Origin: Acidobacteriota bacterium
GTDB taxonomy: Bacteria > Acidobacteriota > CAIWXX01
Direction of reading: 5' to 3'
NCBI GenBank assembly: GCA_040755995.1
Contig: JBFMAF010000024.1
Location: 288,001-352,000, forward strand
Length of the DNA: 64,000 nt
In this document: positions 25,153 to 64,000 of the stretch, one piece after another
Layout: every line of letters begins with the position of its first letter
Numbering within the stretch: position 1 is the stretch's first letter
Notes under the pieces: model-generated
Databases searched by the model: none
What the model saw: only the letters and a program-made list of their open reading frames with translations
Told to the model about the DNA's origin: nothing
Translations under genes and position numbers: made by a program

Positions 25153-25222
25153 AGATTCAGGCCCGTGAAATGCGGCTCGAAAGCCTCTGCTCATTCGCGC
25201 CATGCTCTACGCCTCCGGCTGC

Positions 25223-26626
25223 CTAGTCGTCCTCTGGCGGCTCGGATGGTTCGCCCTTGGCTGGCCGGATCTGGTACTGCTCCATCTTCTTGTACAGATT
25301 CGAGCGGGGGACGTCGATCTGGTTTGCTGTTTGAGATATGTTCCAATCGTTCTCGCGGAGGCGGGTGAGGATGAAGTGTTTCTCGCAGAGGTCGCGGTAT
25401 TCTCTCAGAGTGCGCGCGCCGGACACGTCCAGGATTCCGCGCGAGTTCGGCGGGGCCTTCTGGATCACCCCTTGCAGCATCAGGTCATCGGGGCCGATGC
25501 TGTCACCATCGCTCATGATCAAGAGCCGCTCGACCAGGTTTCTCAGCTCGCGGACGTTTCCGCGCCAGGGCATGGTGCGCATCGTCTGAATCGCATCCGG
25601 ATGAAAGCTCTTGTTTCGAAGGCTGTTCTCCTGGATGTACATCTGCCGAAAATGCTCCACCAGCGGCGGGATGTCATCGGGGCGCTCCCGCAGCGGCGGG
25701 CTCTGGATCGGGATCACGTTGAGCCTGAAATACAGGTCCTCGCGGAAACGGCCGGCCGTGATTTCGGCTTCGATCTCCTTGTTGGTCGCTGCGATGACCC
25801 TGACGTCGATCTTGATTATGCGATTCGCACCGATTCGCTCGATCTCCCCCTCCTGCAGCGCCCGGAGCACCTTTGCCTGCGTCTTCAGGCTCATGTCGCC
25901 GATCTCGTCCAGGAAGATCGTCCCGCCGCTCGCCTGCTCGAACTTCCCGATCTGTTTCTCGAAGGCTCCCGTGAACGAGCCCTTCTCGTGGCCGAACAGC
26001 TCGCTCTCGATCAGCTCCTCCGGTATCGCCGCGCAGTTCACCTGGACAAACGGTTCGGACCTTCGGGTGCTGAGCCGATGGATCTGTCGCGCCACCAGCT
26101 CCTTGCCCGTCCCACTCTCGCCGCGAATCAGGACTGTGGCGTGGGTAGGCGCCGCCTTCTGAATCGTCTCCAGCAGGCGCCGCATAGGGGCGCTCTCGCC
26201 CACGATCCGATATCGATTCTCTTCACGCAATCTGAACCGGCGGTTCTCCCGGGCGAGGCTCGAATGCGACAGCGCGTTGCGGACGGTCAGCAGCAGCTTG
26301 TCACGCTCGAGGGGCTTCTCGAGGAAGTCGAAGGCGCCCTGCTTTGTCGCCTCGACGGCCGTCGACACGGTGCCGTGCCCGGAGATCATGATCACCTCGG
26401 GGGGCTCCGGCGAGGCCACGATTCTCGGCAGAAGCTCCATGCCATCTACCTGCGGCATCTTGATGTCCAGCAGAACGATGTCAGGACGCTCCTCGTCGAT
26501 CATCCGCAGCCCCTCGCCGGCGTCCCGGGCTCCGACGAATACGTATCCCTCGTACTCCAGCACCATCTTCAGCGTGTCTCGAATGCCTTCGTCGTCGTCA
26601 ATCACCAGAATGCGCGGTTTCCCCAT
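25223..26626 (-). CDS. Sigma54-dependent response regulator (NtrC/NtrX family)
   Basis: REC, GESGTGKE, GSFTGA, FLDEI, WRGNVREL, Fis-type HTH. Confidence 0.93.
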   Translation of the reverse strand: MGKPRILVIDDDEGIRDTLKMVLEYEGYVFVGARDAGEGLRMIDEERPDIVLLDIKMPQVDGMELLPRIVASPEPPEVIMISGHGTVSTAVEATKQGAFDFLEKPLERDKLLLTVRNALSHSSLARENRRFRLREENRYRIVGESAPMRRLLETIQKAAPTHATVLIRGESGTGKELVARQIHRLSTRRSEPFVQVNCAAIPEELIESELFGHEKGSFTGAFEKQIGKFEQASGGTIFLDEIGDMSLKTQAKVLRALQEGEIERIGANRIIKIDVRVIAATNKEIEAEITAGRFREDLYFRLNVIPIQSPPLRERPDDIPPLVEHFRQMYIQENSLRNKSFHPDAIQTMRTMPWRGNVRELRNLVERLLIMSDGDSIGPDDLMLQGVIQKAPPNSRGILDVSGARTLREYRDLCEKHFILTRLRENDWNISQTANQIDVPRSNLYKKMEQYQIRPAKGEPSEPPEDD

Positions 26627-26907
26627 CAGACCGGTCACCTTTCTTGCGAGCGCAGCGGGAATGAGGGGCCGAGGACTGACTCACACACCCACGGCTCGAA
26701 CACCCCTCATGCCAGCTCCAACCGTACCATGCTCACCAGCACACTTTCAAGCGGAGGCGGGATGAGGTAGCATTAATGTCCTGGGGGGATGTTGAGAAGC
26801 CGGTTTCGCTCTGCTTGCCTGAACCAGGGGGCGTGCCCAGGGAGCGTTCGGCACCAGGCGAGGAGGCGGCCCGGCATTCCGATCGACACCCGGCTAGTCA
26901 CGACTGG

Positions 26908-29649
26908 ATGAAGCAAATGGAAACGGGTCCATCACGCACTCCGATCTTCGTGTTCGATATCTGGGGATGCCGCGGCTCGCGCAATCTGGAGCCGGGGTCG
27001 TCGCGACTGGGCACGCGGACGCCCTGCTACTCCGTCCTCGGCAGGGAAGAGCTCCTCGTTTTCGACGCGGGCCGCGGACTCGCCGCGCTCGGCATCGCGA
27101 TGAAGCAGGGCGTCCGGTATCAGAACGTCTCGCATATTCACCTGCTAGTGAGCCACGCTCACATGGATCACTGGGAGGGGCTCAAGGATGTCGACTGGTT
27201 CTGGCTGAAGGACCGGCCCCTGGAAGTGACGCTCCATGGGCCGTCGGAAGCAGTCGAGGCCGCTCGCGCGGCATTCGCTCATCCGTCCTACGTTCCGCTG
27301 GAACAACTGGCCTCCGGCACCAACGTGCGCTTCGACGTGGATGCTCTGAAGGCCGGAGATGAGCGCGATCTCGGTTCGTTCCGCCTCAAGACGGCGGCTC
27401 TCAACCATTACAGCGGCAGCGGCCCCACCAAACGCATGCTGGACGCACTGGGATTCCGCGCTGAAGGGAAGGATGGGCCCGTCGTTTCCTATGTCTCGGA
27501 TCACGAGCCATCGCCCAGCCATGCCGCGGATGAGGCCCGGCTGGTGACGGGCGCCTCGCTCATCGTGCTCGACGCTCACTATGCGAACATCTCCGAGCAT
27601 TCATACGGACACGGGTCGATCGAGTACGCAGCGCGGATCGCGCGCTCGTATCCGGACACCCTGGTCATGGCCAGCCACATCGGCTCGCTTCTGAGCGACG
27701 AGTCCATCATCGAGTCGGTCCTCCGCCACGCCCAGGGCGTCGCCAATTTCCGGCTCTCGCGCGAGGGGGATTCGTATTTCTGGAACTGGCGGGAGCAGAA
27801 GTTCATCACGCACGGACAGCCCCCAGCCGTCTCCGTCGGATCAGACGGCACACCGAGGCGGCCTTTCCCGAAGGGCGGTCTCGCGACGCCGGAAGACCTC
27901 CATATCCTCAGGCACGAGCTGAAGACCCCGATCAATCAGATCATGGGCTATTCGGAGCTCATCGAGGAGGAGATGGAGGACAAGGGCGAATCATCGTACA
28001 CCGCCGACCTGCGGAAGATCCACAAGGCCTCCCAGCAGCTGCTATACCTGGTCGATCAGATCCAGCTGCCTGACTCGGCCCCCGGCGCGCCGCCGCCGGT
28101 TCCGCAGCATTCAACCGGACTGGAACAGGCGACAGCCGAGATCGGGACCGACGACGAAGCCGCTGTCGCTCTTCCGGCGGATTACGATCAGAATGGAGCA
28201 CCTGGCGAGCACGTGCTTGTGGTCGACGACAACGAGCTGAACCTTGACATGCTGTCGCGACGGCTGAAGGGGCGGGGCTACCGCGTCTCGGTTGCGAGCG
28301 ACGGGCAGCAGGCGTTCGAGAAGGTGAATGCGGACCGGTTCGACGCGATCCTCCTGGATATAATGATGCCCGGCATCAGCGGGCTTGACGTGCTGAAGGC
28401 GCTGCGCAAGACGTATACTCCGGCCGACCTGCCGGTCATCATGGCCACGGCGAGGGATCAGAGCGAGGACATCGTGGAGGCGCTGAAGCTCGGCGCAAAC
28501 GACTACGTCACCAAGCCGCTCGATTTTCCCGTCGTCGTGGCGCGCCTCCGAACCCACCTCTCGCTGAAGAAGGCCAGGGATCGTGTGAACCGCCTGGTGG
28601 AAGGGTTGGAGGTCAGGAATCGATTCATACGAAAAACGTTCGGGCGGTATCTGAGCGACGACGTGGTAGCGAGTCTGCTGGAGAGTCCGGAGGGGCTCAA
28701 GCTTGGCGGCGACCGCCGCGTTGTGACCATGCTCATGGCCGACCTCCGAGGCTTCACCTCGATGACGCATGGGATGAACCCCGAGCTGGTCATGAGAGTC
28801 CTCAACAACTACCTGGGGACCATGGCGCACGTCATCACCAAGCATCGAGGGACAATTGACGAGTTCCTCGGCGACGGCATTCTGGCGCTGTTCGGGGCGC
28901 CGATTCAGGCTGAGGACGACCCGCGGCGCGCCCTCGCATGTGCGCTCGAAATGCAGGTGGCGATCGAGGCGGTGAATGAACACAATGCGGCCGAGGGGCT
29001 GCCGTCGATCGACATGGGCGTCGCACTGAACACGGGCGAGGTCGTCGTTGGCAACATCGGATCAGAGACGCGGGCCAAGTACGGAGTGGTGGGTAGCCAG
29101 GTGAACCTGAGCGGGCGAATCGAGTCGTTCACAGTCGGCGGCCAGATTCTGATGACTGACGCCACACTGCAGGCGGCCGGCCGTGACGTGCACGTGGGGA
29201 AGGCGCTGGCGCTGAACGCGAAGGGCTTCAAGGAACCAGTGCGCGTCTACGAGCTCGTGGGACTCGGCGCGCCTTACAACATCTTCCTCCCGCAGCGGAA
29301 GGACGCGCCGGTCCAGCTCTCGCAGGAGATCCCCGTTCTTTGCTGGGTGCTGAGCGACAAGCTGATCGACACGGATGTATTCGAGGGGTTCATTACCGCA
29401 TTGTCGCCCAGGGGTGGTGAGATGCGGTCTCTGGCCAGCCTGGAGCCTATGACCAACCTCAAGCTCCGCTTTGCCGGTGATCGTGAGAAGGTGCTCGATT
29501 CCGATATCTACGTCAAGGTGACATGTGCCGACGAGACGGCCCACGAACGGCTGAGCTTCCGCTTTACTTCGGCGCGGCCCGATGTGCTCGAATATATCCG
29601 GCAGCTTCGCGAGAACAACGGCCGGTTGCCTGGGGAGCCAGCACGCTAA
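26908..29649 (+). CDS. MBL-fold hydrolase - DHp - REC - class III (Cya2-type) cyclase fusion with C-terminal beta domain
   Basis: WGCRGS, SHAHMDH; RHELKTP with no HATPase; receiver LLDIMMP; ADLRGFT, IDEFLGDG, KYGVVGSQVNLSGRIE. Start uncertain (open from 26776). Confidence 0.88.
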   Translation: MKQMETGPSRTPIFVFDIWGCRGSRNLEPGSSRLGTRTPCYSVLGREELLVFDAGRGLAALGIAMKQGVRYQNVSHIHLLVSHAHMDHWEGLKDVDWFWLKDRPLEVTLHGPSEAVEAARAAFAHPSYVPLEQLASGTNVRFDVDALKAGDERDLGSFRLKTAALNHYSGSGPTKRMLDALGFRAEGKDGPVVSYVSDHEPSPSHAADEARLVTGASLIVLDAHYANISEHSYGHGSIEYAARIARSYPDTLVMASHIGSLLSDESIIESVLRHAQGVANFRLSREGDSYFWNWREQKFITHGQPPAVSVGSDGTPRRPFPKGGLATPEDLHILRHELKTPINQIMGYSELIEEEMEDKGESSYTADLRKIHKASQQLLYLVDQIQLPDSAPGAPPPVPQHSTGLEQATAEIGTDDEAAVALPADYDQNGAPGEHVLVVDDNELNLDMLSRRLKGRGYRVSVASDGQQAFEKVNADRFDAILLDIMMPGISGLDVLKALRKTYTPADLPVIMATARDQSEDIVEALKLGANDYVTKPLDFPVVVARLRTHLSLKKARDRVNRLVEGLEVRNRFIRKTFGRYLSDDVVASLLESPEGLKLGGDRRVVTMLMADLRGFTSMTHGMNPELVMRVLNNYLGTMAHVITKHRGTIDEFLGDGILALFGAPIQAEDDPRRALACALEMQVAIEAVNEHNAAEGLPSIDMGVALNTGEVVVGNIGSETRAKYGVVGSQVNLSGRIESFTVGGQILMTDATLQAAGRDVHVGKALALNAKGFKEPVRVYELVGLGAPYNIFLPQRKDAPVQLSQEIPVLCWVLSDKLIDTDVFEGFITALSPRGGEMRSLASLEPMTNLKLRFAGDREKVLDSDIYVKVTCADETAHERLSFRFTSARPDVLEYIRQLRENNGRLPGEPAR

Positions 29650-29894: not shown

Positions 29895-31973
29895 ATGGAA
29901 TCCGTGACACTCGACGATGCCCGGCGCAACGACGTGGTGGCGGCGCTCGGGAAATGCCCGCTCTTCCGCGCGCTCAAGGCTGAGCACTTCCCTCAGATTA
30001 TCAACATTGGTGAGCTCTACCAGTATGATCCGGAGGAGGTGATCATACGGCAGGGAGATCCCTCTGATTCGTTCTTCGTGATTGTGGATGGTGAGGTATC
30101 CGTGAGAGATGCCAAGCCCGACGGCGAGTACATAGAGCTCGGGCGAATGCCCGCGAAGAGCAGCGTCGGCGAGATCGGCCTGTTGTTGGATGAGCCTCGG
30201 ACTGCCACCGTGGTGGCCACTCAGCAGGCGGTGGTGTTGAAGTTCGGCGCGAAGGCCTTCCATGTCATGTTCCAGAAGATCCCGGATTTCGGCGTGGGGG
30301 TTAGCCGCGGGCTGGCCCACCGGCTGGAGCAGGTATCGGGCCGTCGCGTAGCGCTGCCCGAGTACGACACGACGAAGCCGAGGCCCCCGGTCGACGTGCT
30401 CAGCCTGCTCCCCAGGGAGCTGTGCCAGCGCCATCGCATCCTCCCGCTGCAGGTCGATGGGAGTATCGTCACGATGGGGTTCGTGGATGAGCCCAGCACG
30501 CAGGTGATGACCGCCGTTCGCGACCAGCTCGCCAGCATGGACATCAGACCCATGCACATCAACCTCGAGTTCTACAACAAGATCATGCAGAGCTACGTCG
30601 GGCTGGAAGGCTGGGGAGCGCCAGCCGAGGCTGCCCCCGAGGCGCCCCCAGCTGCACGACCTCAATCCAAGTCGCCTCGGCTGGATGGTCTGTTGGAGAG
30701 GGTGGTGGCGGAAGGCGCATCGGATTTGCACGTGTCCGCCGGCCACAAGCCTCACTGGCGCATAGAAGGCGACATGCAGACGATCGTGGACCTACCGGTG
30801 CTTGGCGAGAACGAGGTCTTCGAGCTGCTCCAGCCGGTAATGGAACACAGGCATCTGGACGAGTTCGCGGAGAGAATGGACGCGGACTTCGCCTACGCGG
30901 TGCCCGGCCTCGCCCGTTTCCGCGTCAACATGTACAAGGACAACCACGGGGTCGGTGCGGCTTTCCGTCTGATTCCGTCCAAGGTTCTCACACTCGATCA
31001 GCTCGGCCTCCCCGCAGTCCTCAAGAACTTCTGCGAGGTTCCCAAGGGGCTGATCCTGGTGACGGGTCCGACCGGCTGCGGGAAGTCCACAACCCTGGCC
31101 GCGATGATAGACCACATCATCAAGACGCGCAAGGCACACATCGTGACGCTGGAGGACCCGATCGAGTTCGTTCATCAGAGCGATGCCTGCCTGATCAACC
31201 AGCGCGAGATCGGGGGTCAGGTGCAGAGCTTCGGCAGAGGCTTGCGCGCCGCGCTGCGCGAGGACCCGGACATAGTTCTACTGGGCGAGATGCGGGATGC
31301 AGAGACGATCGCATTGGCGCTCGAGACCGCCAACACGGGCCACCTTGTGCTGGCCACGTTGCACACAAACACAGCCATCACGGCGCTCGACCGGATCATC
31401 GACTCGTTCCCCGGCGACCAGCAACCCCAGATTCAGAGCACGCTCGGGGATGTGTTGAGAGGCGTCGTCGCGCAGATGCTCGTCAAGAAGATCGGCGGAG
31501 GCCGCATGGCCGTGTGCGAGGTCATGGTCGTGAACTACGCCATACAGAACCTCGTCCGCGAGAAGAAGACTCAACAGATCCCCAGCGTCATGCAGACGGC
31601 CAGGGGCATAGGGATGGCACTGCTCAACGACGAGCTTGCGAAGCTGGTGGAGGATCGGAAGATCGAGATGCAGGAGGCCATGAGCAAGGCCATCGACAAG
31701 GACGATCTCAACCGGCGCTTCCGGAGCGGCCTGACGCTCGCCGAGGACCCACCCACCTTCGAGCGGGTCCGGATCATCGCTGTGAGGCCGTCGACTCCGG
31801 CCTCCGAGGCCGGGCTGCATCGCGGAGACTACATCGTGGAATTCGCCGGGAAGCCGACCAAGGAGTACACGGTGGACGAGATTCGAGCCGCCTTCCGCAT
31901 CGATATGCAGCACCAGCTCGGCATCCAGAGGGGTGACAAGCGCCTCAAGATTGTCATGGACATGCGCAAGTAA
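29895..31973 (+). CDS. pilT: PilT-family retraction ATPase with N-terminal cNMP-binding and T2SSE_N-like domains and C-terminal PDZ
   Basis: IIRQGD..GEIGLL..PRTATV; LLPRELCQRHRILPL; ASDLH, RFRVN, GPTGCGKST, EDPIE, GEMRD, TLHT, AIQNLVRE; PASEAGLHRGD. Confidence 0.88.
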   Translation: MESVTLDDARRNDVVAALGKCPLFRALKAEHFPQIINIGELYQYDPEEVIIRQGDPSDSFFVIVDGEVSVRDAKPDGEYIELGRMPAKSSVGEIGLLLDEPRTATVVATQQAVVLKFGAKAFHVMFQKIPDFGVGVSRGLAHRLEQVSGRRVALPEYDTTKPRPPVDVLSLLPRELCQRHRILPLQVDGSIVTMGFVDEPSTQVMTAVRDQLASMDIRPMHINLEFYNKIMQSYVGLEGWGAPAEAAPEAPPAARPQSKSPRLDGLLERVVAEGASDLHVSAGHKPHWRIEGDMQTIVDLPVLGENEVFELLQPVMEHRHLDEFAERMDADFAYAVPGLARFRVNMYKDNHGVGAAFRLIPSKVLTLDQLGLPAVLKNFCEVPKGLILVTGPTGCGKSTTLAAMIDHIIKTRKAHIVTLEDPIEFVHQSDACLINQREIGGQVQSFGRGLRAALREDPDIVLLGEMRDAETIALALETANTGHLVLATLHTNTAITALDRIIDSFPGDQQPQIQSTLGDVLRGVVAQMLVKKIGGGRMAVCEVMVVNYAIQNLVREKKTQQIPSVMQTARGIGMALLNDELAKLVEDRKIEMQEAMSKAIDKDDLNRRFRSGLTLAEDPPTFERVRIIAVRPSTPASEAGLHRGDYIVEFAGKPTKEYTVDEIRAAFRIDMQHQLGIQRGDKRLKIVMDMRK

Positions 31974-32007
31974 CTGCTGCGGGCGGCAGGCGAGACGGGG
32001 GTAGGAG

Positions 32008-32664
32008 ATGACCAAGAGATCGTTCTTGTCGAAGGGCGCAGTGCTGTGGGAATTCGGCGATCTAGCCCGCAGCATCGCCGTGGTCGAACAGGGCAAGCTG
32101 GGCATCCGAACGGAGAAAGGGGACGTCATCGGCGTCGTCCTGCCGAAGATGATACTCGGCGAGACCGCCATCTTCACGCTCGATGGGCAGGCGCCGCGCC
32201 GAACGGCGACAGCGTTTGCGATGGAGGACTACACGCAGGTGACCGAATACCCCGTGCTAGTAGTGAAGGGCATGGTGGAGTCCGGCAATCTCGCGATCAT
32301 CTCCCAGATCCTGAAGACGCTTACGGGCCAGGTGAGTCGAATCTGCCTGGTCCTGTCAGGGGCTAACAGGGATCGCCCGGTGATACGTTCGACGATGCAG
32401 GGACTGCTGACGGGCATCGTTCACTCGGCGAAGGAGCTCGGCACCATCACCACCTGGGACGACTTCTTCCGCGCCTTCCGATTCCTGTCGATATTCAGGG
32501 ACGAGCTGGGCAGGCTCTGCGGGGACTTCATGCCCGGCGCAGCGGTGCAGTCGGAGACGCTCGACAAGCTGTCGACTACCATCAAAGAGATGTTCGGCGG
32601 CGATGACAGCATCGTCTTGCAGTTGGAGCAGTTCGTCGATGCATCTCGGGAGAAGGAGACATAG
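32008..32664 (+). CDS. Cyclic-nucleotide-binding domain protein without an obvious HTH
   Basis: LWEFGD, VEQGKL, LGETAIF..RRTATA; helical C-terminus; AGGAG RBS. Confidence 0.75.
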   Translation: MTKRSFLSKGAVLWEFGDLARSIAVVEQGKLGIRTEKGDVIGVVLPKMILGETAIFTLDGQAPRRTATAFAMEDYTQVTEYPVLVVKGMVESGNLAIISQILKTLTGQVSRICLVLSGANRDRPVIRSTMQGLLTGIVHSAKELGTITTWDDFFRAFRFLSIFRDELGRLCGDFMPGAAVQSETLDKLSTTIKEMFGGDDSIVLQLEQFVDASREKET

Positions 32665-32764
32665 AGCAGAGACCTGCCCCGCGATGACTGCCCATTTCTC
32701 TGGGAGGACTGCGGCGGCGCGGGCCAAGGTGTCCGACGCCTCAGCCTCCGCCGCCGGCGGGTCA

Positions 32765-41271: not shown

Positions 41272-44200
41272 TCAATGCCCTGAGGTGCCGGCCCGTGCGA
41301 CCTGCTCCAGATACGGCTGGAGCTCGCGCCGGAGGTTGGAATTCAACTCGATCGCTCGTTCCAGCGCCTCCCGCGCTTGCGTCGCCGCCTCTGCCTTCGC
41401 GCCAGGAGTGGCCGCAGATCGGGCCCGGAGCAGGTACAGGAAGCCACGGACGGCATGCGCACGAGCGCAGGCGGGGTTGACTGCGATGGCCCTCTCGGCG
41501 ACTTCCAACCCTCGCTGCAGCGCGTGCGTGGCCTTGTCCGCGCGGGCAGTGGAGGATTCGGCACGCCATCGATACGTCTCGGCCAGCCCGGCCAAAGCAT
41601 CGGTGTTCCGATCGTTGTATCGGATGGCCTCACCAAACGCCCGCTCAGCTTCGACGAGCTCCCGCTCCGCGGGTCGATCAAGGCTGATCGCCCATTGCAC
41701 CTTGAGCAGATGGAGCTCACCGGCGAGAGTATGAGTCTCTGAGGAAGTCGGGTCGATCGCGATCGCCTTCTCCAGTATTGGGGCGGTCGGTGCGAGGCCG
41801 CCGAGTGGTGACCTGTTCTGATCGATTGCGTATCGGGCCTCGATCAGCGCTGCCCGCATCGTGAGGTGCATGCATCCGAGCTCCTCGCCGAAGTCGTCGA
41901 ACACCCTCTGAAGAGACTCCCTGGCCTGGCGGAGTACGCCGGACGGGTCGCGTCCATGGCAGACGTCAAACTGCGCGAGCACCATCCGCGTATGGGCGAG
42001 ATTCAGCAGGGGCAAGTAGACGTCAGAGTGCACCTTCAATGCCTGGTCGAGCGCATGGATGGCATCGGCTGCCGTCTTGGTTGGGTCCCTGCCTGTTTCC
42101 AATTCCCACCTCGCCATCAGCCCACACACCGACCCGAGGTTTCCGAGGGAGTAAGCATGATTTGGGTTGATTTCCAGCGCCTTCTTGTAGGCATCGATCG
42201 ACCGCGAGAAGGAGTCGGAAGGGTCCATTCCTGAATCCATCTCATACATGGCGAGGTCGAAGTAGATGATGCCCATGTTGTTGAAGCCCGAAACGAAGCG
42301 CGGGTTGATCTCCACGGCCTTGCGATAGCAGGCTATGCCCGCCTGGAATGACTTCCGTGGATCCATGCCGCGCCGCATCTCGAACTCGCCAATGTCCAGG
42401 TACGCGATGCCCATGCGCTTGTAGGCGTCAGGGTTCATGGCGTCAATCGCAGCCGCCTTCGTGAAGCTGTCGATGGCCCGATTGAGCGTCTCCCGCGGGT
42501 CCACTCCGGTCTCCTTTTCGATCACTCCGCGGAGGCCGTATGCGACTCCCATGTCAAGGTACGGCTTGTCATTCTGCGAATCGAGCGCGAGAGAACGACT
42601 GGCAGCCTCGACAGCCCTGTCGAACTCATCGAGTGCAGGCTGAGCCCCTGCGCCATGCATCATCAGGTACTCTCCGTGGAGCCAATGCGCCTCGGCCATC
42701 GCGCCGTGCGCCTCGGCGCTCTTCGGGTCCGCCTGCAGCATCCGGTTGACTGCCGAGGTCACCCGTTCGAAGTACGGAGTCGGATCGCCGCCGATCTCGT
42801 ACAAGAGAAGCCTCATCGTGGTCACGTGGAGCGCGCACAGCTGCTGGTACGTATCCGGGTCGCTCTCGCCGACGGAGGCGGCCAGCTGGTAGGCGGCCTC
42901 GGCGAGATCGTATTCCGCGCGAGCCGCCTCGTACTCGCCTCGATCCTGCTTCTCGCTGCCCATCGCCCGATGAACGTCGCCCTCGAGTATCGACGCCTCG
43001 TACAACCACACTGCAGCCTCTCTGGCTGCGCGCGCCCTCCGCAGGGCGGGTTCGTACTGCTTCTCATAAAACGCGACAAGCCCCTTCACATAATCGGGCG
43101 ATTCTGTGCCCACGTCTCGCACCCGACGCAGATGCTCGATCGCCGGGTCCCGGAACGCCTTCTCGATCTCCAGGCGCTTCGCCCCTCTTGCATCCCTGTC
43201 CGTGATCCGCTCGATCTGCTCGAGCTGCTTCAGGTACAGCGCGCCCAATGTCCGGCCGAGCGCCATGGCAACGGAATCGTCCTGGAAGCCGGCGGCCCAG
43301 GCCTTTTCCAGATGTTCCCGCGCGGACTCGTACTTGCCAAGCGCGAGGTATCCGCGGCCCAGGGCGTAGTGGCCGGGGCCATACCCGGCGTCCCCCACAC
43401 GCTCCATCTGTTCCTCGATCGCCATCATTCGCCTCTTCAGCAGATCCATCTCGTTGCGGATGTTGTGGAGCGGCGCCATGTGGGCGAATCGCATGATCGC
43501 CTCGATTTCCTTGATCTCCAGACCGAACCTCTGCGCCAGGATGGCCTCTGAACGTGCGAGCCACCGGGATCGAATTCCGTAACCACCCAGGACCATCACC
43601 GCGACGAGCGCCAAGGTGCTGACCGCGAATACAGCCTTGTTCTTCTTGGCCCTCTTGTAGAGCTTGTACCCCCAGGTCGCAGCGCGCGCCTCCACCGGTT
43701 CACCATCCAGATACCGCTGCAAGTCATCGGCCAGAGCGCGCGCGGAGTCGTAGCGCCTGTGTATCTCCTTTTCCAGGCACTTCATCACGATCGTGTCGAG
43801 GTCCACCGGAATCCCAGGGTTGATCTTGCGCGAGGCAAGCGGCTCCTCGTTGATGACCTTCAACAGCAGGGCCGTGGCGCTCGGCGCCTCGAACGGCACC
43901 CGTCCGGTGAGCATCTCGTACATGGTTGCGCCGAGGCTGTACACGTCCGTGCGGCGATCGAGCCGCTCCAGCTGGCCAAGCGCCTGCTCCGGGGCCATGT
44001 ATGCGGGCGTTCCCAGGACCGCTCCCGTCACCGTCTCTCCGTGAGCCTGCACATCCCGGGCTAGCCCGAAGTCCATCACATAGGGCGCCCATCGCCCCTC
44101 GTCGATTCTGGCCACCATCACGTTGCTCGGCTTGATATCCCGATGGATCAGGCCGATGCGATGAGCCGCGTGCAACCCTTGCGCCACCTGCTGGATTGCC

Positions 44201-44781
44201 CGCAGCTTCTGCTCCAGGTTCATCTCCGCCGCGGCATCCTTCAGCGTGCGACCCTCGATGTACTGCATCGCAATGTAGAGCTGCCCCTGCACCTCGCCCA
44301 CTTCGTACACCTTGCAGACATGTTCGTGCTCCACGCGCGCCTGCGCCTGTGCCTCCTGGAGGAAGCGCCGGGCCAACTCGGGATTGTCCTGCAAGATAAA
44401 CTTGAGCGCCACCGGCCGTTTCAGCCGGCGATCATACGCCTTGTACACACGTCCCATGCCGCCCTGGCCGAGGAAGTCGACGAACTCGTACCGGTCCCAC
44501 CCTCGAACCGGTGCGCCGGGGAATGCCTTCGCCGGGCCCTCCGGTGATGTCCACGGTGTAGTCGGCGGCGACGGTGTCTCCGGCCCCTCGACCAGTGTCT
44601 CTCCGGAGGAGATGCCAGCTCCACCGGCCGGCGTCGGGTCGACCGTGAGGGCCTCAGGCGCTGGCCGCGGAGTGTGCACCGGAGGGAGATCTTCGGTTAG
44701 GTCGGCGCGTGGCGCGCCGGCCCCGACACCTGGTCCGCCATGCTGCTCGACCAGACCCTCGTGTCGTTTCGGTTTATCCAT
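41272..44781 (-). CDS. Hanks-type Ser/Thr protein kinase with TM helix and long TPR C-terminus
   Basis: GQGGMG, VALK, HRDIKPSN, DFGLA, YMAPE, DVYSLG; TM; TPR repeats. Start moved from 45273 to avoid overlap with the divergent gene. Confidence 0.9.
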   Translation of the reverse strand: MDKPKRHEGLVEQHGGPGVGAGAPRADLTEDLPPVHTPRPAPEALTVDPTPAGGAGISSGETLVEGPETPSPPTTPWTSPEGPAKAFPGAPVRGWDRYEFVDFLGQGGMGRVYKAYDRRLKRPVALKFILQDNPELARRFLQEAQAQARVEHEHVCKVYEVGEVQGQLYIAMQYIEGRTLKDAAAEMNLEQKLRAIQQVAQGLHAAHRIGLIHRDIKPSNVMVARIDEGRWAPYVMDFGLARDVQAHGETVTGAVLGTPAYMAPEQALGQLERLDRRTDVYSLGATMYEMLTGRVPFEAPSATALLLKVINEEPLASRKINPGIPVDLDTIVMKCLEKEIHRRYDSARALADDLQRYLDGEPVEARAATWGYKLYKRAKKNKAVFAVSTLALVAVMVLGGYGIRSRWLARSEAILAQRFGLEIKEIEAIMRFAHMAPLHNIRNEMDLLKRRMMAIEEQMERVGDAGYGPGHYALGRGYLALGKYESAREHLEKAWAAGFQDDSVAMALGRTLGALYLKQLEQIERITDRDARGAKRLEIEKAFRDPAIEHLRRVRDVGTESPDYVKGLVAFYEKQYEPALRRARAAREAAVWLYEASILEGDVHRAMGSEKQDRGEYEAARAEYDLAEAAYQLAASVGESDPDTYQQLCALHVTTMRLLLYEIGGDPTPYFERVTSAVNRMLQADPKSAEAHGAMAEAHWLHGEYLMMHGAGAQPALDEFDRAVEAASRSLALDSQNDKPYLDMGVAYGLRGVIEKETGVDPRETLNRAIDSFTKAAAIDAMNPDAYKRMGIAYLDIGEFEMRRGMDPRKSFQAGIACYRKAVEINPRFVSGFNNMGIIYFDLAMYEMDSGMDPSDSFSRSIDAYKKALEINPNHAYSLGNLGSVCGLMARWELETGRDPTKTAADAIHALDQALKVHSDVYLPLLNLAHTRMVLAQFDVCHGRDPSGVLRQARESLQRVFDDFGEELGCMHLTMRAALIEARYAIDQNRSPLGGLAPTAPILEKAIAIDPTSSETHTLAGELHLLKVQWAISLDRPAERELVEAERAFGEAIRYNDRNTDALAGLAETYRWRAESSTARADKATHALQRGLEVAERAIAVNPACARAHAVRGFLYLLRARSAATPGAKAEAATQAREALERAIELNSNLRRELQPYLEQVARAGTSGH

Positions 44782-44907
44782 TTCTTGTCGGGTGAACTCG
44801 GAAGCCACTATGAGAAGTGCACGTGGATATGATAGTTTTAAGATTGCGAAAAGGGAAGGGGACTTCCCATGGTGCGTGCTGCAAACCGACGTGAACGTTG
44901 AGTGCCG

Positions 44908-46491
44908 ATGCCATATCTGATCCTCAATCCAGGGACCTCTAACGAGCAATCCTTCCAGCTCAAGACCGGGGCGAACACCATCGGCAGGGACATGGAGAAC
45001 GACATCGTCATCCTGCAGACGACATTGTCGCGCCGCCACGCCCGGATCGATGTGACTGCCGACCGAGTATTCGTCACGGACCTGCAGAGCCGCAACGGGA
45101 CGTTCGTGAACGACGTCAAGATCGATCAGAGGGAGGTTCGCAACGGGGATCTCATCCGCTGCGGCAGCTCTGTGATGAGGTTCACCGAGGGGCAGCGGAT
45201 CGAGAAGGAGCTCAAGTCCACAGGGGCATCCTCGCTGGGCGAGCTGCTGATCAAGGACTCGATCGACATCCACGGCACCGTCCTGAGGCTGAAGCAGAAG
45301 GACGAGACCAGCCGGAGCGTCGACATGCTGCGCGTCCTTCTCAAGGTGAGCGAGCTCCTCTCATCTCCCGAGAACATCGACACGATCCTGGGTAGCACCC
45401 TGGACCTCTTGTTCGCGATCGTGGACGTCGATCGCGGAGCGATCTACCTGCTCGACGACAAGACCGGCGACCTGATTCCTGCCGCGGTGAAGCTGGCGCC
45501 CGGGCTCGACCCGAACCGGCCGTTCTCCAGCCGGCACATCCTCAACCATGTGCTCGAGAAGGGGATTGGTGTCCTGAGCTCCGATGCGGTGGTCGACACG
45601 CGTTTCGCCGGGGCTGCCTCGATTCTGGATCAGTCGATACATTCCTCCATGTGCGTCCCTCTCAAGTGCCGCGACAAGACCACAGGCGTTCTGTACGTGG
45701 ACAATCTCATCCGTTCGGACCTGTTCGCCGAAGCGGATCTGGAGTTCCTCAGCGGCTTTGCAAATCAGGCGGCCGTCGCCATCGAGAACTCCCGGTTGTA
45801 CCGGAGAATCGAAGAGGATGCTATCGCTCGCAATCGCCTTCTTCGCTTCTTTCCCCGCGCGGTCATCAACAAGCTGATGGAATCCAAGGATCTCGGCCTG
45901 GGCTCAGTCGACGCAGACGTCACGATCCTGTTCTCCGACATATGCAGTTTTACAGAGACCTCCTCGACGATGGAGCCACGACAGGTAGTTGATCTTCTGA
46001 ACGACTACTTCCCTGTGATGGCCGAGATCGTGTTCCGCCACGGCGGCACGCTGGAGAAGTACATCGGAGACGCTTTGATGGCTATCTGGGGAGCGCCGTT
46101 TCAGGATCCCGAGGACGCTGATCGCGCCCTGGGGGCGGCCATCGAGATGCAGCACGCGCTGAGGCAGCTCAACCGGAAATTGGTGGAGTGCGGAAGGGTC
46201 GAGATACACATCCACATCGGCTTGAACAGCGGCACGGTGGCCGCGGGCAACATCGGCTCGGCAGACTACATCCAGTATGCCGCCATAGGAGATGCTACCA
46301 ACGTGGCGAGCCGAGTCTGCTCGGCGGCTCAGAGGGACGAAGTGCTCGTTTCCCAGGAGACGTACGCCAAGCTGACGAACAAGTCACTGCCCTTCGAGTC
46401 CCTTCCGCCTACGATGGTGAAGGGCAAAGACAAGCCGCTCCAGCTCCATCGCATCCGATGGGATCTCGTGCCGAAGGTGAGCAGCCAATGA
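44908..46491 (+). CDS. FHA-GAF-class III adenylate cyclase
   Basis: IGR, SRRHA, SRNGTFVN (FHA); GAF; FSDI, EKYIGDA, IGDATNVASR. Confidence 0.92.
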   Translation: MPYLILNPGTSNEQSFQLKTGANTIGRDMENDIVILQTTLSRRHARIDVTADRVFVTDLQSRNGTFVNDVKIDQREVRNGDLIRCGSSVMRFTEGQRIEKELKSTGASSLGELLIKDSIDIHGTVLRLKQKDETSRSVDMLRVLLKVSELLSSPENIDTILGSTLDLLFAIVDVDRGAIYLLDDKTGDLIPAAVKLAPGLDPNRPFSSRHILNHVLEKGIGVLSSDAVVDTRFAGAASILDQSIHSSMCVPLKCRDKTTGVLYVDNLIRSDLFAEADLEFLSGFANQAAVAIENSRLYRRIEEDAIARNRLLRFFPRAVINKLMESKDLGLGSVDADVTILFSDICSFTETSSTMEPRQVVDLLNDYFPVMAEIVFRHGGTLEKYIGDALMAIWGAPFQDPEDADRALGAAIEMQHALRQLNRKLVECGRVEIHIHIGLNSGTVAAGNIGSADYIQYAAIGDATNVASRVCSAAQRDEVLVSQETYAKLTNKSLPFESLPPTMVKGKDKPLQLHRIRWDLVPKVSSQ

Positions 46492-61938: not shown

Positions 61939-62718
61939 CTACCCGCGCTCCTCCTTCTCCGCCGTCACACGATTGAACATTGCGTACAGCTGCTTGAAGT
62001 GCTGGAGGCTTTCGCAGATCAGGGGCTCGAGACTCGGCAGATCCGCCTTGTTCACCGTGACGTTGGCGCCGTGCAGGAAGGCGGTGTTGGCATCGCCTGT
62101 TCTGAGGGTTGAGGAGATCAAGACGACGAGCGTCTGCCGGCGCTGGACCGGTTTCTGCCCGTTGATCTTCGCGATGATCTTGATGCCGCCCTCGGGATCA
62201 TCCGGGAATGCCTGGCCCACAGTGATCAGCTGGTAGGTCCCCGACGACACCTCCTGGATCGCATCGGCGGCGCTCCGTGCCACTTCCACCGAGTATCCCA
62301 GGCGGCTCAGGACCCGCGAGATCCCATCGACCTGGCCCTGATCATCGTCGCAGATCAGGGCCCTCTTCGCGCCGTACTCGCGGCCGGAGTCTTCGGCGGC
62401 AAGGGCGGTTTCGGCCGGGTCGAGGTCGCGTCCGAAGAGAGCCCTCACGGAGTCCAGGATCTCCTTTTTCGTCGCCGCCAGCTCGCGCCTGACATACGCC
62501 TGAACGGCGGGCGAGATCTCGTCTCCTGGTGGCGAAGCCGCCTGGCCCGAGGCAGCCGGGACATGCGGGCTCGACGGAGGCGCGGCCGTCCTGGTCGCAT
62601 CCTTTTGCACAGTGACGATCTTCCCGCAGTTCGGGCAGGGCGTCCGGAAGACGCCGGTGGGCGCTTTCGCATCATCGATCTGGATCAGGTTCTTGCAGTC
62701 GGGACAGCTCACTCTCAT
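61939..62718 (-). CDS. Zinc-ribbon (MJ0042-like) plus pseudo-receiver protein
   Basis: CPDC..CPNC; receiver-like ALICDDD with no phosphoacceptor Asp. Confidence 0.75.
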   Translation of the reverse strand: MRVSCPDCKNLIQIDDAKAPTGVFRTPCPNCGKIVTVQKDATRTAAPPSSPHVPAASGQAASPPGDEISPAVQAYVRRELAATKKEILDSVRALFGRDLDPAETALAAEDSGREYGAKRALICDDDQGQVDGISRVLSRLGYSVEVARSAADAIQEVSSGTYQLITVGQAFPDDPEGGIKIIAKINGQKPVQRRQTLVVLISSTLRTGDANTAFLHGANVTVNKADLPSLEPLICESLQHFKQLYAMFNRVTAEKEERG

Positions 62719-62729
62719 GACGTCCTCCG

Positions 62730-63974
62730 CTACTCCAGCCAGTCCGGCTTGTTCTCCACCCGAGTCGGGCCGGGGCCCGTCCGTGCCTTGGGCGGTGGGC
62801 TTGCGGCCGGCGCCGGAGCGGGACTCGGCGGCGGTTGCTCCACTTCAGCGCCCGGAGCAAGCTGATCGATCGCAGCGTCCGACCCCAGCCCCTGGAACGC
62901 GAGCGCAAGGTTGCCGGGATTGGTGGCGTAGCTCAACGCCACCTGCTCCTCGATTATCCCCGCCTGCACCATCCTCTCCAGCTCGCTGTCGAACGCCTGC
63001 ATGCCGTCGAGATGCCCGTCGTTCATCGCATCCACCAGGGAACGCCCCTCCGACTCCCCCCTGACGATGTACTCGCGCGTGCGCAGCGTCGACCTCAGAA
63101 TCTCGATCGCGGCGACCCGCCCGCCGCCTCTCTTGGGAACCAGGCGCTGGGAGATGACCCACTTGAACGTCTGCGCGAACCGCGTGCGGATCTGCTGCTC
63201 CTCGTTCGTCGGGAAGATGCCGATGATGCGGGCGATCGTCTTGGAAGCGTCGATCGTGTGGAGCGTGCTAAGAACGAGATGGCCCGTCTCGGCGGCCTCC
63301 AACGCAATCTCCGTGGTCTCGGCGTCCCGCATCTCGCCCACAAGCACTACTTTGGGCGCCTGCCTCAACGCCGCGCGCAGCGCCAGCGAGAAGGTCGTGG
63401 TGTCCGTGCCAAGCTCGCGCTGGTTCACAGTCGACTTCTTGTGCTGGTGAAGGTACTCGATCGGATCCTCGATGGTCACGATATGGTACGCGTGTTTTTC
63501 ATTGATGTCGTTGATGATGGCCGCCAATGTCGTCGACTTCCCGCTGCCGGTCGGGCCCGTCACAAGCACGATCCCGTTCTTCTCCTCAGCCACGGCGTAC
63601 AGAGCCTTGGGCAATCCCATCTGGGCAATCGACGGCACGCCCGAGGGAATCACGCGCATCACGATCGCGAACGTACCACGCTGCAAGAACACGTTCACGC
63701 GAAAGCGCGTCACGCCGGGTATGCTATAAGACAGGTCGGTTGAACCCGTATGGACCAGTTTCCGCATGGTCTCCTGATCCTGTCCCATCAGACTGAGCGC
63801 GATCATCTCGGTCTGATACGGGCTGAGCCTCTCCATCCCCTTGATCGGCACGGACACCAGCTCGCCGCTCACCTCCACCTGCGGCGGCCTGCCGACCGAG
63901 AAGTTCAAGTCGGATATGCCCTCGCGCATGCGAAGCATCGATTCGAAGATCCGGTTTACCTCCACCTTGTTCAT
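62730..63974 (-). CDS. pilT: PilT/PilU family twitching-motility ATPase
   Basis: ISDL, RFRVN, GPTGSGKST, EDPIE, GEMRD, STLHT, SQRL. Confidence 0.9.
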   Translation of the reverse strand: MNKVEVNRIFESMLRMREGISDLNFSVGRPPQVEVSGELVSVPIKGMERLSPYQTEMIALSLMGQDQETMRKLVHTGSTDLSYSIPGVTRFRVNVFLQRGTFAIVMRVIPSGVPSIAQMGLPKALYAVAEEKNGIVLVTGPTGSGKSTTLAAIINDINEKHAYHIVTIEDPIEYLHQHKKSTVNQRELGTDTTTFSLALRAALRQAPKVVLVGEMRDAETTEIALEAAETGHLVLSTLHTIDASKTIARIIGIFPTNEEQQIRTRFAQTFKWVISQRLVPKRGGGRVAAIEILRSTLRTREYIVRGESEGRSLVDAMNDGHLDGMQAFDSELERMVQAGIIEEQVALSYATNPGNLALAFQGLGSDAAIDQLAPGAEVEQPPPSPAPAPAASPPPKARTGPGPTRVENKPDWLE

Positions 63975-64000
63975 GGTGTGCCCCCAGTGCTCCAACGAGA

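What the first reader, a model, noticed from the sequence alone, without database searches (positions are those of the whole stretch)
29895..31973. Chimeric PilT: cNMP-binding + PilB-type N1 subdomain + PilT core + PDZ
Seen: the core has retraction-ATPase hallmarks (AIQNLVRE resembling AIRNLIRE, and no tetracysteine motif). It is preceded by a T2SSE_N-like segment (LLPRELCQRHRILPL) typical of PilB/GspE extension ATPases. The RLG c-di-GMP motif is absent and a cNMP-binding domain sits in its place. A PDZ-like tail follows. Inference: the sensor was swapped from c-di-GMP to cNMP, and the PDZ docks a partner.
Basis: partly seen in the sequence, partly recalled or inferred. Interest (0 to 1): 0.85.

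Follow-up and report, generated by a model that had tools for sequence, protein, structure and literature searches.

The report
cNMP-sensing PilT motor with PDZ tail
This gene encodes a pilus-retraction-type motor ATPase fused to a cyclic-nucleotide sensor domain, a docking subdomain otherwise seen in pilus-extension motors and a PDZ tail; because it lies next to a guanylate-cyclase-type gene it is predicted to let cGMP (or cAMP) act directly on pilus retraction, a link I found in no paper.

Summary
Window 29895..31973 (+) is one intact 692-aa gene. It has a cNMP-binding domain with an intact phosphate-binding cassette. Next comes the C-terminal (N1E-like) subdomain of an MshEN/GSPII domain, without the c-di-GMP motif. 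A disordered linker leads to a complete PilT-family core (TIGR01420, 438.8 bits, cut-off 319.1) and a C-terminal PDZ domain.

It is not a one-off chimera. At least 120 full-length homologs (55-65% identity) share the four domains. A wider three-domain family without PDZ also exists. This scan met the family before in other genomes (e1-1510179, e1-972023).

The genome has a canonical pilB-pilT-pilC cluster elsewhere, so this is an accessory paralog.

The gene upstream encodes a one-chain MBL-HisKA-REC-cyclase. Its catalytic domain is Cya2-like and keeps the Glu that makes Cya2 a guanylate cyclase. The gene 34 nt downstream encodes a second cNMP-binding protein.

Best reading: a cNMP-gated (here probably cGMP-gated) retraction-type motor. 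The 'swap from c-di-GMP' is not shown as an evolutionary event, and the PDZ partner is unknown. The cyclase adjacency was not found in other loci. Six literature searches found no paper on this fusion. I rate it a new variant of a known kind, of moderate to high interest.

The parts
29895..31973 (+). Whole gene: 692-aa cNMP-binding / MshEN-C (N1E-like) / PilT core / PDZ protein (P0002)
   Evidence: ORF, RBS; HMMs; family of full-length homologs
29895..30338 (+). Cyclic-nucleotide-binding domain (residues 1-148; Pfam match 43-127 = 30021-30275), followed by conserved hinge and C-helices
   Evidence: E 1.8e-18. (58-67 bits to PKA-R and PKG CNB domains). (beta-barrel plus helices 119-148, pLDDT 80-92)
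30168..30212 (+). Phosphate-binding cassette GEIGLLLDEPRTATV (residues 92-106)
   Evidence: position. (G92, E93, R102, A104 invariant in 44 sequences). (43 homologs: G 43, E 42, R 38, T/S 37, A 41)
30372..30599 (+). MshEN/GSPII C-terminal subdomain (GspE-N1E-like), residues 160-235, with no c-di-GMP motif
   Evidence: MshEN, profile 9-68 of 90. (motif absent). (domain model pLDDT 84.3; top folds MshE 5HTL, PilB-N 7LKO, PilF GSPII, XpsE-N, EpsE-N1)
30600..30674 (+). Ala/Pro-rich, poorly conserved, predicted disordered linker (residues 236-260)
   Evidence: pLDDT below 50 at 236-255. (gappy, unconserved columns). (sequence)
30681..31706 (+). PilT-family motor core (residues 263-604): Walker A 31065-31091, Asp box 31146-31169, Walker B 31269-31298, His box 31335-31367, AIQNLVRE 31539-31562
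   Evidence: TIGR01420, 438.8 bits. (3JVU, 353 bits). (Foldseek, PilT 3JVU, E 4.6e-30). (motif positions). (catalytic residues invariant)
31728..31964 (+). C-terminal PDZ domain (residues 612-690), preceded by the invariant RRFRSG junction (31713-31730)
   Evidence: PDZ_6 in 44 of 44. (DegP PDZ1 E 1.1e-5, HhoA 8.7e-5). (b-b-a-b-a-b-b, pLDDT 81-90)
26776..29649 (+). Upstream neighbour, 245 nt before the gene: one-chain metallo-beta-lactamase-fold + HisKA + receiver + Cya2-type class III cyclase. The database gene call starts at 26917
   Evidence: Pfam. (235 bits to Cya2 2W01; Glu kept in tidEflGDG). (Cya2 is a guanylate cyclase and E488K makes it an adenylate cyclase).. (910-aa call)
32008..32664 (+). 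Downstream neighbour, 34 nt after the stop: 218-aa protein with a cNMP-binding barrel (PBC ...GETAIF...RRTATA) and a C-terminal part of about 130 aa with no family match
   Evidence: only cNMP_binding, E 2.6e-9. (Atlas cluster of 156 members, commonest Acidobacteriota; a lead only)

Best explanation
The gene encodes an accessory PilT-family hexameric motor ATPase that is predicted to be switched by a cyclic nucleotide, in this genome probably cGMP made by the neighbouring Cya2-type cyclase.

Shown by calls or by the sequence itself:
- There are four domains in one intact reading frame.
- The cNMP phosphate-binding cassette is intact and conserved.
- The second domain has the fold of the MshEN/N1E docking subdomain but lacks the c-di-GMP four-helix bundle.
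- All PilT catalytic motifs are present.
- The tail is a PDZ domain.
- A canonical pilB-pilT-pilC cluster and pilM lie elsewhere in the genome.
- The flanking genes encode a REC-coupled cyclase with the guanylate-cyclase Glu and a second cNMP-binding protein.

Inferred mechanism:
1. A phosphorelay activates the cyclase.
2. The nucleotide binds the N-terminal sensor and repositions its conserved C-helix.
3. This would free or engage the adjacent N1E-like subdomain. In GspE that subdomain binds GspL, and in X. citri PilB it binds PilZ.
4. The subdomain is tethered by a flexible linker of about 25 residues. The motor would therefore be recruited to, or released from, the type IVa pilus platform, or relieved of auto-inhibition.
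5. The PDZ tail would hold a partner's C-terminal peptide, for localisation or for coupling.
6. Net effect: post-translational control of pilus retraction by a cyclic mononucleotide.
For: Domain calls: (44 of 44 members carry all four domains).

PilT identity:
- TIGR01420 scored 438.8 bits against a cut-off of 319.1.
- PDB phmmer: PilT 3JVU 353 bits, PilU 234, GspE about 131, PilB about 105.
- Foldseek on the full model: P. aeruginosa PilT first, E 4.6e-30.
- In the tree, the cNMP-PilT clade (14 four-domain and 5 three-domain rows, SH-aLRT 99*) lies inside the PilT side, split 100* from PilB-like ATPases.

Active motor: the Walker A Lys, the Asp-box and Walker B Glu residues and the His-box His residues are invariant in 44 sequences.

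Sensor under selection: across 43 homologs the cassette keeps G 43, E 42, R 38, T/S 37 and A 41.

Docking fold: the domain model has pLDDT 84.3. All 12 hits at E<=0.001 are MshE, PilB-N (in complex with PilZ) or PilF GSPII domains. XpsE-N, GspE-GspL and EpsE-N1/EpsL follow.

Linker: disordered and unconserved.

Cyclase:
- Its catalytic domain scores 235 bits to Cya2 (2W01) with Glu at the E488 place, while the engineered adenylate-cyclase form 6FHT has Lys there.
- Passages of PMC5995499 state that Cya2 is a guanylate cyclase and that E488K switches it.
- Only 2 of the genome's 5 class III cyclases are of this E..G type; 3 are K..T.

Clustering: the genome has 5 cyclase and 14 cNMP-binding matches in 7.7 Mb. 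One cyclase with two cNMP-binding genes within 3.3 kb has a chance of roughly 3e-4. This is my own rough arithmetic, not a tool result.

Pilus machine present: PilB-like, PilT and PilC lie together on C28, and PilM on C55.
Against: - No experiment or expression data exist for this gene.
- The cyclase adjacency is not conserved where I could look. The 5 three-domain relatives in the same phylum have unrelated neighbours and no adjacent cyclase.
- In two of those genomes (G023, G009) the best cyclase match is of the adenylate type, K..T.
- None of the 66 cyclase homologs shares a longest-contig length with any of the 120 listed four-domain proteins, apart from the window's own contig. This is a proxy only.
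- The two same-family genomes gave no match to the N-terminal sensor part with this query.
- cGMP against cAMP cannot be read from the cassette. The 'RTA' argument rests on recalled knowledge and is weak.
- A disordered linker means that allostery through the backbone is unlikely, so the gating mode (docking or auto-inhibition) is conjecture.
- The full-length model has pTM 0.42, so it gives no confident inter-domain packing.
- The gap of 245 nt between the cyclase gene and this gene shows no clear promoter or terminator, so co-transcription is open.
Confidence: 0.55

Rival explanations
1. Same architecture and logic, but the physiological ligand is cAMP and not cGMP. The link to the neighbouring Cya2-type cyclase would then be coincidental or secondary.
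For: Three of the genome's 5 class III cyclases carry the adenylate-type Lys (K..T), one of them 14 kb downstream in the window. In the genomes G023 and G009, which hold three-domain relatives, the best match to the cyclase domain is K..T. The adjacency to a Cya2-type cyclase was not found in other loci. The closest solved CNB domains by sequence are PKA regulatory subunits.
Against: The immediately adjacent cyclase keeps the Glu that defines Cya2 as a guanylate cyclase. Three cNMP genes in a row are unlikely by chance. PKG CNB domains score almost as well as PKA ones.
Confidence: 0.25
2. The protein is not a retraction motor of the type IVa pilus. It would be a PilT-derived ATPase working on another filament or machine, or acting mainly as a signalling or scaffold protein, as some PilB and PilT paralogs are thought to do.
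For: The genome has 5 PilT-family paralogs over the cut-off and a canonical pilT beside pilB and pilC elsewhere. This gene lies among two-component and sigma-54 regulator genes, not pilus genes. The family branches away from the genome's canonical PilT.
Against: The core is full-length PilT with every catalytic motif and an AIRNLIRE-like motif invariant in the family. Only two T2SSF-type platform genes are found in the genome, PilC and one T2SS-like gene. The added N1E-like subdomain is a module known only from pilus and T2SS ATPases.
Confidence: 0.2
3. One reading: an ancestral c-di-GMP-sensing MshEN-ATPase had its four-helix c-di-GMP module replaced by a cNMP-binding domain (a sensor swap).
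For: The retained subdomain is exactly the C-terminal half of MshEN, and the cNMP domain sits where the four-helix bundle would be. The Atlas lists a cluster of PilT-family proteins of about 546 aa with MshEN (162 members, commonest Actinomycetota) that aligns structurally to residues 174-611. This is a lead that I did not examine.
Against: I saw no relative with both a PilT core and the 24-residue motifs. The sister clade has an unrelated N-extension with no Pfam match (4 of 4). All 40 of 40 sampled carriers of the N-terminal module have a PilT-type core and none a PilB-type core. Independent acquisition of an N1E-like subdomain together with a CNB domain explains the data equally well.
Confidence: 0.15
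4. The cNMP-binding domain is a degenerate fold that no longer binds nucleotide and serves only as a protein-interaction or dimerisation module.
For: Some family members have lost the cassette Arg (5 of 43). The metagenome homolog L034 has His there.
Against: This copy and all 44 of the four-domain alignment keep G92, E93, R102 and A104. The domain scores 66.7 bits against a cut-off of 27.5.
Confidence: 0.07

Closest known systems
PilT, the type IVa pilus retraction ATPase (P. aeruginosa PilT, PDB 3JVU/3JVV; Geobacter PilT4, 6OJX; Aquifex PilT, 2EWV)
   Same: Residues 263-604 align end to end (353 bits, 45% identity in Foldseek). Walker A and B, the Asp and His boxes and an AIRNLIRE-like motif are present. 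There is no Zn tetracysteine.
   Different: Canonical PilT is about 345 aa with no sensor. This protein adds about 260 residues in front (cNMP sensor, N1E-like subdomain, linker) and about 85 behind (PDZ). It is an extra paralog beside the canonical pilT.
MshE / PilB / PilF extension ATPases with MshEN (GSPII) domains that bind c-di-GMP (PDB 5HTL, 8PDK; passages of PMC11731258 and PMC11656802)
   Same: A second-messenger sensor at the N-terminus of a PilT/VirB11-class motor. [quoted passage not shown]
   Different: The four-helix bundle with the two 24-residue motifs is absent. The messenger would be a cyclic mononucleotide bound by a CNB fold. The motor is retraction-type and not extension-type.
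GspE N1E-GspL (PDB 4PHT, 2BH1) and X. citri PilB-N-PilZ (7LKO) docking complexes
   Same: Same small alpha/beta subdomain, attached to the motor by a flexible linker. In these systems it is a protein-docking module.
   Different: No partner is known here. A test with the genome's PilM gave no verdict (see Tried and rejected).
Cya2 of Synechocystis (PDB 2W01), a bacterial guanylate cyclase. This is the neighbour's relative, not the gene's own.
   Same: The upstream gene's catalytic domain scores 235 bits and keeps Glu at the E488 position.
   Different: Cya2 is CHASE2-regulated and membrane-bound (passage in PMC5995499). The neighbour is soluble, with MBL-fold, HisKA and receiver domains.
Known cyclic-nucleotide control of type IV pili: cAMP-Vfr/CRP transcription control, Pil-Chp (review PMC11656802, passages)
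   Same: A cyclic mononucleotide linked to pilus function.
   Different: In the known cases the nucleotide acts through a transcription factor. Here the receptor domain is part of the motor itself.

Membership tests
PilT/PilU family type IVa pilus ATPase (TIGR01420) | Full-length match to the family model above its curated cut-off | tested here: met
   438.8 bits against a cut-off of 319.1, positions 2-343 of 343. 33 of 40 other carriers of the N-terminal module are also above the cut-off, and 40 of 40 have it as their only strong hit.
PilT/PilU family type IVa pilus ATPase (TIGR01420) | Walker A, Asp box, Walker B and His box intact | tested here: met
   GPTGCGKST 391-399, TLEDPIEF 418-425, DIVLLGEMRD 459-468, TGHLVLATLHT 481-491. 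The key residues are invariant in 44 sequences.
PilT/PilU family type IVa pilus ATPase (TIGR01420) | AIRNLIRE-type motif of PilT (motif recalled from the literature, not from a call) | tested here: met
   AIQNLVRE at 549-556. A549, R555 and E556 are invariant, and N552 and L553 are at least 90% conserved.
PilT/PilU family type IVa pilus ATPase (TIGR01420) | Branches with PilT and not with extension ATPases | tested here: met
   A 100* split separates it from the genome's 3 PilB/GspE-like cores. PDB scores: PilT 353, PilU 234, PilB about 105 bits. No named PilT or PilU reference sequences were in the tree.
PilT/PilU family type IVa pilus ATPase (TIGR01420) | Powers pilus retraction | not testable with these tools
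   Needs genetics and microscopy.
PilB/GspE extension ATPases | Family models above cut-off; tetracysteine Zn site | tested here: not met
   TIGR02538 scored 135.1 bits against 675.65, and TIGR02533 scored 157.7 against 630.25. There is no CxxC in the protein or in 0 of 44 relatives.
MshEN c-di-GMP receptor domain | Two tandem 24-residue (R/K/L)LGxx... motifs forming a four-helix bundle (consensus as printed in PMC11731258) | tested here: not met
   No motif in P0002 and 0 of 44 family members. The genome's own PilB has two motifs, at positions 8 and 37.
MshEN c-di-GMP receptor domain | C-terminal alpha/beta subdomain | tested here: met
   Pfam MshEN, profile positions 9-68 of 90. Foldseek top hits 5HTL, 7LKO, 9G1W and 8PDK.
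Cyclic-nucleotide-binding (CAP/PKA-type) domain | Pfam PF00027 above cut-off and phosphate-binding cassette G-E...R-[TS]-A | tested here: met
   66.7 bits against 27.5. GEIGLLLDEPRTATV at 92-106. Conservation counts.
Cyclic-nucleotide-binding (CAP/PKA-type) domain | Binds cAMP or cGMP | not testable with these tools
   Needs a binding assay.
PDZ domain | HMM match and similarity to solved PDZ domains | tested here: met
   PDZ_6 27.4 against 27 and PDZ_2 27.7 against 27. 44 of 44 relatives match PDZ_6, best E 1e-13. DegP PDZ1 E 1.1e-5 and HhoA 8.7e-5. The secondary-structure order fits.
PDZ domain | Binds a C-terminal peptide of a partner | not tested
   No candidate partner was identified.
Cya2-type guanylate cyclase (upstream neighbour) | Glu at the substrate-specifying position (E488 of Cya2) | tested here: met
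   tidEflGDG aligned to tidEfmGDG of 2W01. The E488K construct 6FHT has K at that place. Passages of PMC5995499. The second position is Gly (kyGvvG), as in 2W01.
Cya2-type guanylate cyclase (upstream neighbour) | Makes cGMP | not testable with these tools
   Needs an enzyme assay.

The most novel reading that the evidence does not exclude
A self-contained cGMP circuit acts on a pilus motor without any transcription step. A phosphorelay-gated Cya2-type guanylate cyclase, carrying its own metallo-beta-lactamase-fold hydrolase domain, makes cGMP. The cGMP binds the sensor built into a PilT retraction motor and a small second receptor encoded just downstream. This switches the motor's docking to the pilus base through its N1E-like subdomain and PDZ tail. 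It would be the first second-messenger receptor found on a retraction ATPase and one of very few bacterial cGMP effectors.
Probability: 0.3. Interest if true: 0.75.

Novelty: new variant of a known kind. Interest (0 to 1): 0.55.

Why it matters
In the systems described in the review I read (passages of PMC11656802), second messengers reach type IV pili in two ways. They act through the extension motor (c-di-GMP on MshE, PilB or PilF) or through transcription (cAMP-Vfr). How retraction is regulated is much less clear.

A widespread, conserved family in which a cyclic-mononucleotide sensor is fused to the retraction-type motor offers a directly testable case of messenger-gated retraction. In this genome it also offers a candidate effector for bacterial cGMP, for which few receptors are known (recalled, not from a call).

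The family is abundant in soil Acidobacteriota and, by the Atlas lead, in Myxococcota. It may therefore bear on surface behaviour of common soil bacteria. Its modular build (sensor, docking subdomain, flexible linker, motor, PDZ) is also a natural system for asking how PilT-class motors are recruited to the pilus platform.

Tried and rejected
- **Metagenome scan with alignment A1:** the patterns chosen were generic PilT motifs, so 79 of 80 loci were ordinary PilTs. The 'long' matches were adjacent pilB-pilT genes. Only L034 is a family member: three domains, 39% identity, His in place of the cassette Arg. The gene neighbourhood of four-domain homologs could therefore not be examined, and the tool that fetches encoding contigs is closed.
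- **Contig-length proxy for co-location of cyclase and four-domain homologs:** only the window's own contig is shared. This is weak evidence.
- **Complex prediction of the genome's PilM (alignment A2) with residues 150-240:** no verdict (score 0.00). It counts neither for nor against binding.
- **The look-up of sequencing runs:** none was listed, and no RNA holder was listed.
- **Sigma-70 promoter and terminator scan of 26500-33000 and a sigma-54 consensus scan (54 matches, 57 expected):** nothing usable, and nothing in the 29650-29894 gap.
- **MBL-fold part of the cyclase protein against PDB sequences:** no match at E<=0.01, so the idea that it is a cNMP phosphodiesterase stays untested.
- **The listing of cluster members on 10 representatives:** gave no organism names.
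- **The same-family genome G001:** its contig holds only an MBL-HisKA-REC homolog covering residues 20-611, which says nothing about synteny.
- **Horizontal transfer into this lineage:** considered and dropped. RpoB places the genome with Acidobacteria-labelled MAGs, and the named four-domain homologs are Vicinamibacteria MAGs of the same phylum. The patchy distribution does not need transfer.
- **Literature searches:** no paper in the searchable library describes a cNMP-binding-PilT fusion. Subscription journals and supplements were not covered.
Full report
**1. The observation**

Window 29895..31973 (+) is a single open frame of 692 codons. The ATG at 29895 has a GGAGG 8-12 nt upstream.

Pfam finds four domains:
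- cNMP_binding at 43-127, E 1.8e-18;
- MshEN at 160-219, 29.4 bits (cut-off 23.1), covering only profile positions 9-68 of 90;
- T2SSE at 263-588;
- PDZ_6 and PDZ_2 at 618-686, just over their cut-offs.

NCBIfam gives TIGR01420 (PilT/PilU family) at 438.8 bits against a cut-off of 319.1. The PilB and GspE equivalogs fall far below theirs. There is no CxxC and no c-di-GMP motif, whereas the genome's own PilB shows two motifs in tandem. The motif consensus and the two-subdomain anatomy of MshEN are as printed in passages of PMC11731258.

**2. A family, not a chimera**

The 90%-clustered protein database returned at least 120 full-length relatives at 55-65% identity and 98-100% coverage, 683-717 aa long. 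All carry precomputed cNMP_binding, T2SSE and at least one PDZ family. Those that are named are called 'PilT/PilU family' from Vicinamibacteria MAGs. In a 44-sequence alignment, 44 of 44 match T2SSE, cNMP_binding, MshEN and PDZ_6.

I also searched the N-terminal 262 residues against 1.84 billion cluster representatives. This gave 78 proteins at E<=1e-30, many of them 590-650 aa long and aligned from residue 1. Of 38 such proteins scanned with Pfam:
- 38 have cNMP_binding;
- 37 have T2SSE;
- 34 have MshEN;
- 0 have PDZ.

Together with five loci from the same phylum, 40 of 40 have TIGR01420 as their only strong NCBIfam hit, and 33 of 40 are above the cut-off. So a broad three-domain family exists, and the PDZ tail marks one subclade.

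The Atlas lists three 'cNMP/MshEN/T2SSE' clusters of 169, 115 and 57 members, commonest in Myxococcota (scores 0.82-0.88, so these are leads only). Earlier notes of this scan describe the same family in two other genomes.

**3. Distribution near the window's genome**

RpoB's nearest named relatives are 'Acidobacteria bacterium' (88%) and 'Terriglobia bacterium' (74%) MAGs.
- Among 41 relatives, only G023 and G009 match from the N-terminus, and both stop near residue 610.
- Among 401 genomes sampled from the phylum, 6 including the window's own reach E<=1e-140. The other five are 604-618 aa proteins without PDZ.
- The two same-family genomes gave core-only matches with this query.

The family is therefore patchy among the genomes searched.

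**4. Phylogeny of the core**

I built a quick IQ-TREE of 41 cores. It held 14 four-domain rows, 5 three-domain rows, 15 best hits from relatives, 4 own PilT paralogs and 3 own PilB/GspE-like cores; one weak own paralog was dropped.
- All PilT-type cores fall on one side of a 100* branch.
- The four-domain and three-domain forms make one clade (99*).
- That clade is sister (95*) to 12 PilTs from relatives that carry a different N-extension of about 120 aa. This extension has no Pfam match in 4 of 4 scanned.
- The genome's canonical PilT lies outside this grouping.

One of these rows (L022) comes from the unpublished genome G025. No named PilT or PilU references were available for the tree. The PilT-over-PilU call therefore rests on the PDB scores of 353 against 234 bits and on Foldseek ranks.

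**5. Structure**

The full-length AlphaFold2 model has mean pLDDT 78.8 and pTM 0.42. It shows five folded units with low-confidence stretches at 148-152, 236-255 and 535-545. Domain folds are therefore trustworthy, but their mutual packing is not. Foldseek puts P. aeruginosa PilT first.

A separate model of residues 150-262 has pLDDT 84.3. All twelve of its hits at E<=0.001 are MshE-N (5HTL, rmsd 1.8 A over 81 columns), X. citri PilB-N bound to PilZ (7LKO and related entries) or PilF GSPII domains. XpsE-N, GspE-GspL and EpsE-N1/EpsL follow. This confirms the 'PilB-type N1 subdomain' and shows that in known systems it is a docking module.

The PDZ tail's best PDB sequence matches are the PDZ domains of DegP, HhoA, carboxy-terminal proteases and NHERF1.

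**6. Genomic context**

The genome has 5 PilT-family paralogs over the cut-off. One lies between a PilB with c-di-GMP motifs and PilC on contig C28. PilM and PilN are on C55. The gene studied here is thus an accessory paralog in a genome with a complete pilus machine.

It lies in a block of signalling genes:
- a sigma-54 activator on the minus strand at 25223-26638 (the 522-aa plus-strand ORF over it is a shadow frame);
- the MBL-HisKA-REC-cyclase gene;
- this gene;
- a 218-aa cNMP-binding protein gene 34 nt downstream;
- two histidine kinase genes, another sigma-54 activator gene and a REC-DUF4388 gene.

**7. The neighbouring cyclase**

Its catalytic domain scores 235 bits against Synechocystis Cya2 (2W01). 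It has Glu where the engineered adenylate-cyclase form 6FHT has Lys. Passages of PMC5995499 state that Cya2 is a guanylate cyclase and that the single E488K change switches its substrate.

Of the genome's five class III cyclases, three have Lys (K..T) and two have E..G. The second E..G enzyme is a REC-GGDEF-REC-cyclase on C9. This tests and supports the lead in the earlier first-reader notes that the neighbour is of the cGMP type.

**8. Limits of the cGMP link**

- In the five three-domain loci the neighbours are unrelated and no cyclase is adjacent.
- In G023 and G009 the best cyclase match is K..T.
- The 66 cyclase homologs share no longest-contig length with the 120 listed four-domain proteins, except for the window's own contig.

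The module may therefore be specific to this lineage, and other family members may listen to cAMP. Within this genome, one cyclase and two of the 14 cNMP-binding genes within 3.3 kb is improbable by chance, about 3e-4 by my rough arithmetic.

**9. Mechanism**

Shown by calls or by the sequence:
- an intact and conserved nucleotide cassette;
- an intact motor;
- a docking-type subdomain without the c-di-GMP site;
- a flexible linker;
- a PDZ domain;
- a guanylate-cyclase-type neighbour.

Inferred:
- Nucleotide binding moves the strongly conserved C-helix (GLAHRL, residues 139-144; G139, L140, A141 and R143 invariant) next to the N1E-like subdomain.
- This changes the docking of that subdomain to the pilus platform or to the motor ring.
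- The PDZ tail binds a partner's tail.
- Retraction is thereby gated after translation.

The review passages read describe cAMP acting on pili through Vfr-dependent transcription and c-di-GMP acting on the N1 domain of extension motors. A sensor on a retraction-type motor would be a different entry point.

**10. Verdict**

The evolutionary 'swap' is unproven and the PDZ partner is unknown. Six full-text searches found no paper on this fusion. That is not proof of absence, because subscription journals are not covered. I class the finding as a new variant of a known kind.

Noticed in passing
window 26776 (or 26917)..29649 (+): One polypeptide joins a metallo-beta-lactamase-fold domain (HAHMDH motif), a HisKA domain without a kinase ATPase domain, a receiver domain and a Cya2-type (E..G) cyclase. 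Eight full-length homologs at 48-55% identity exist, plus many HisKA-REC-cyclase forms of about 580 aa. Whether the MBL part hydrolyses cNMP is untested; it has no PDB sequence match.
   Followed up: partly
window 32008..32664 (+): A 218-aa protein has a short cNMP-binding barrel with an intact-looking cassette (RRTATA) and a C-terminal part of about 130 aa with no family match. It starts 34 nt after the PilT-like gene. The Atlas puts it in a 156-member cluster commonest in Acidobacteriota.
   Followed up: partly
window 62730..63995 (-) and 61939..62718 (-): A second, divergent PilT-family paralog (TIGR01420, 398 bits) lies at the window's end. It is followed by a gene for a zinc-ribbon plus receiver-domain protein.
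   Followed up: partly
window 44902..46491 (+): An FHA-GAF-class III cyclase of the adenylate type (Lys at the specificity position), next to a 1333-aa Ser/Thr kinase with TPR repeats (41272..45273, -).
   Followed up: partly
G000:C9:15053-17887 (L119:7053-9887, -): A 944-aa REC-GGDEF-REC-cyclase with the E..G (Cya2-type) signature. One protein could therefore make both c-di-GMP and cGMP. It lies beside a 1569-aa hybrid histidine kinase.
   Followed up: partly
G000:C45:59106-61733 (+): Two tandem genes encode PilB-like proteins with an N-terminal Cys-rich (zinc-ribbon-like) segment and one MshEN c-di-GMP motif each. The first appears to have a degenerate Walker A region.
   Followed up: no
Loci L016-L026 and L030 (relatives' genomes; L022 is from the unpublished G025): The sister clade of the cNMP-PilT family consists of PilTs with an N-terminal extension of about 120 aa. 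The extension has no Pfam match and by eye resembles a degenerate copy of the PilT N-domain. It was seen in 12 rows from 11 genomes of the phylum but not in the window's genome.
   Followed up: partly
window 25202..26770 (+): This 522-aa ORF has no family match and an Arg/Leu/His-rich translation. It is the antisense shadow of a sigma-54-dependent response regulator gene on the minus strand (25223..26638).
   Followed up: yes
Atlas clusters, no coordinates: Other PilT fusions are listed as sizeable clusters: HEAT-repeat-PilT (74 members, Myxococcota), receiver-PilT (59 members, Actinomycetota) and MshEN-PilT (162 members, Actinomycetota). Sensor or adaptor add-ons to retraction-type motors therefore seem to be a general, little-studied theme.
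   Followed up: no
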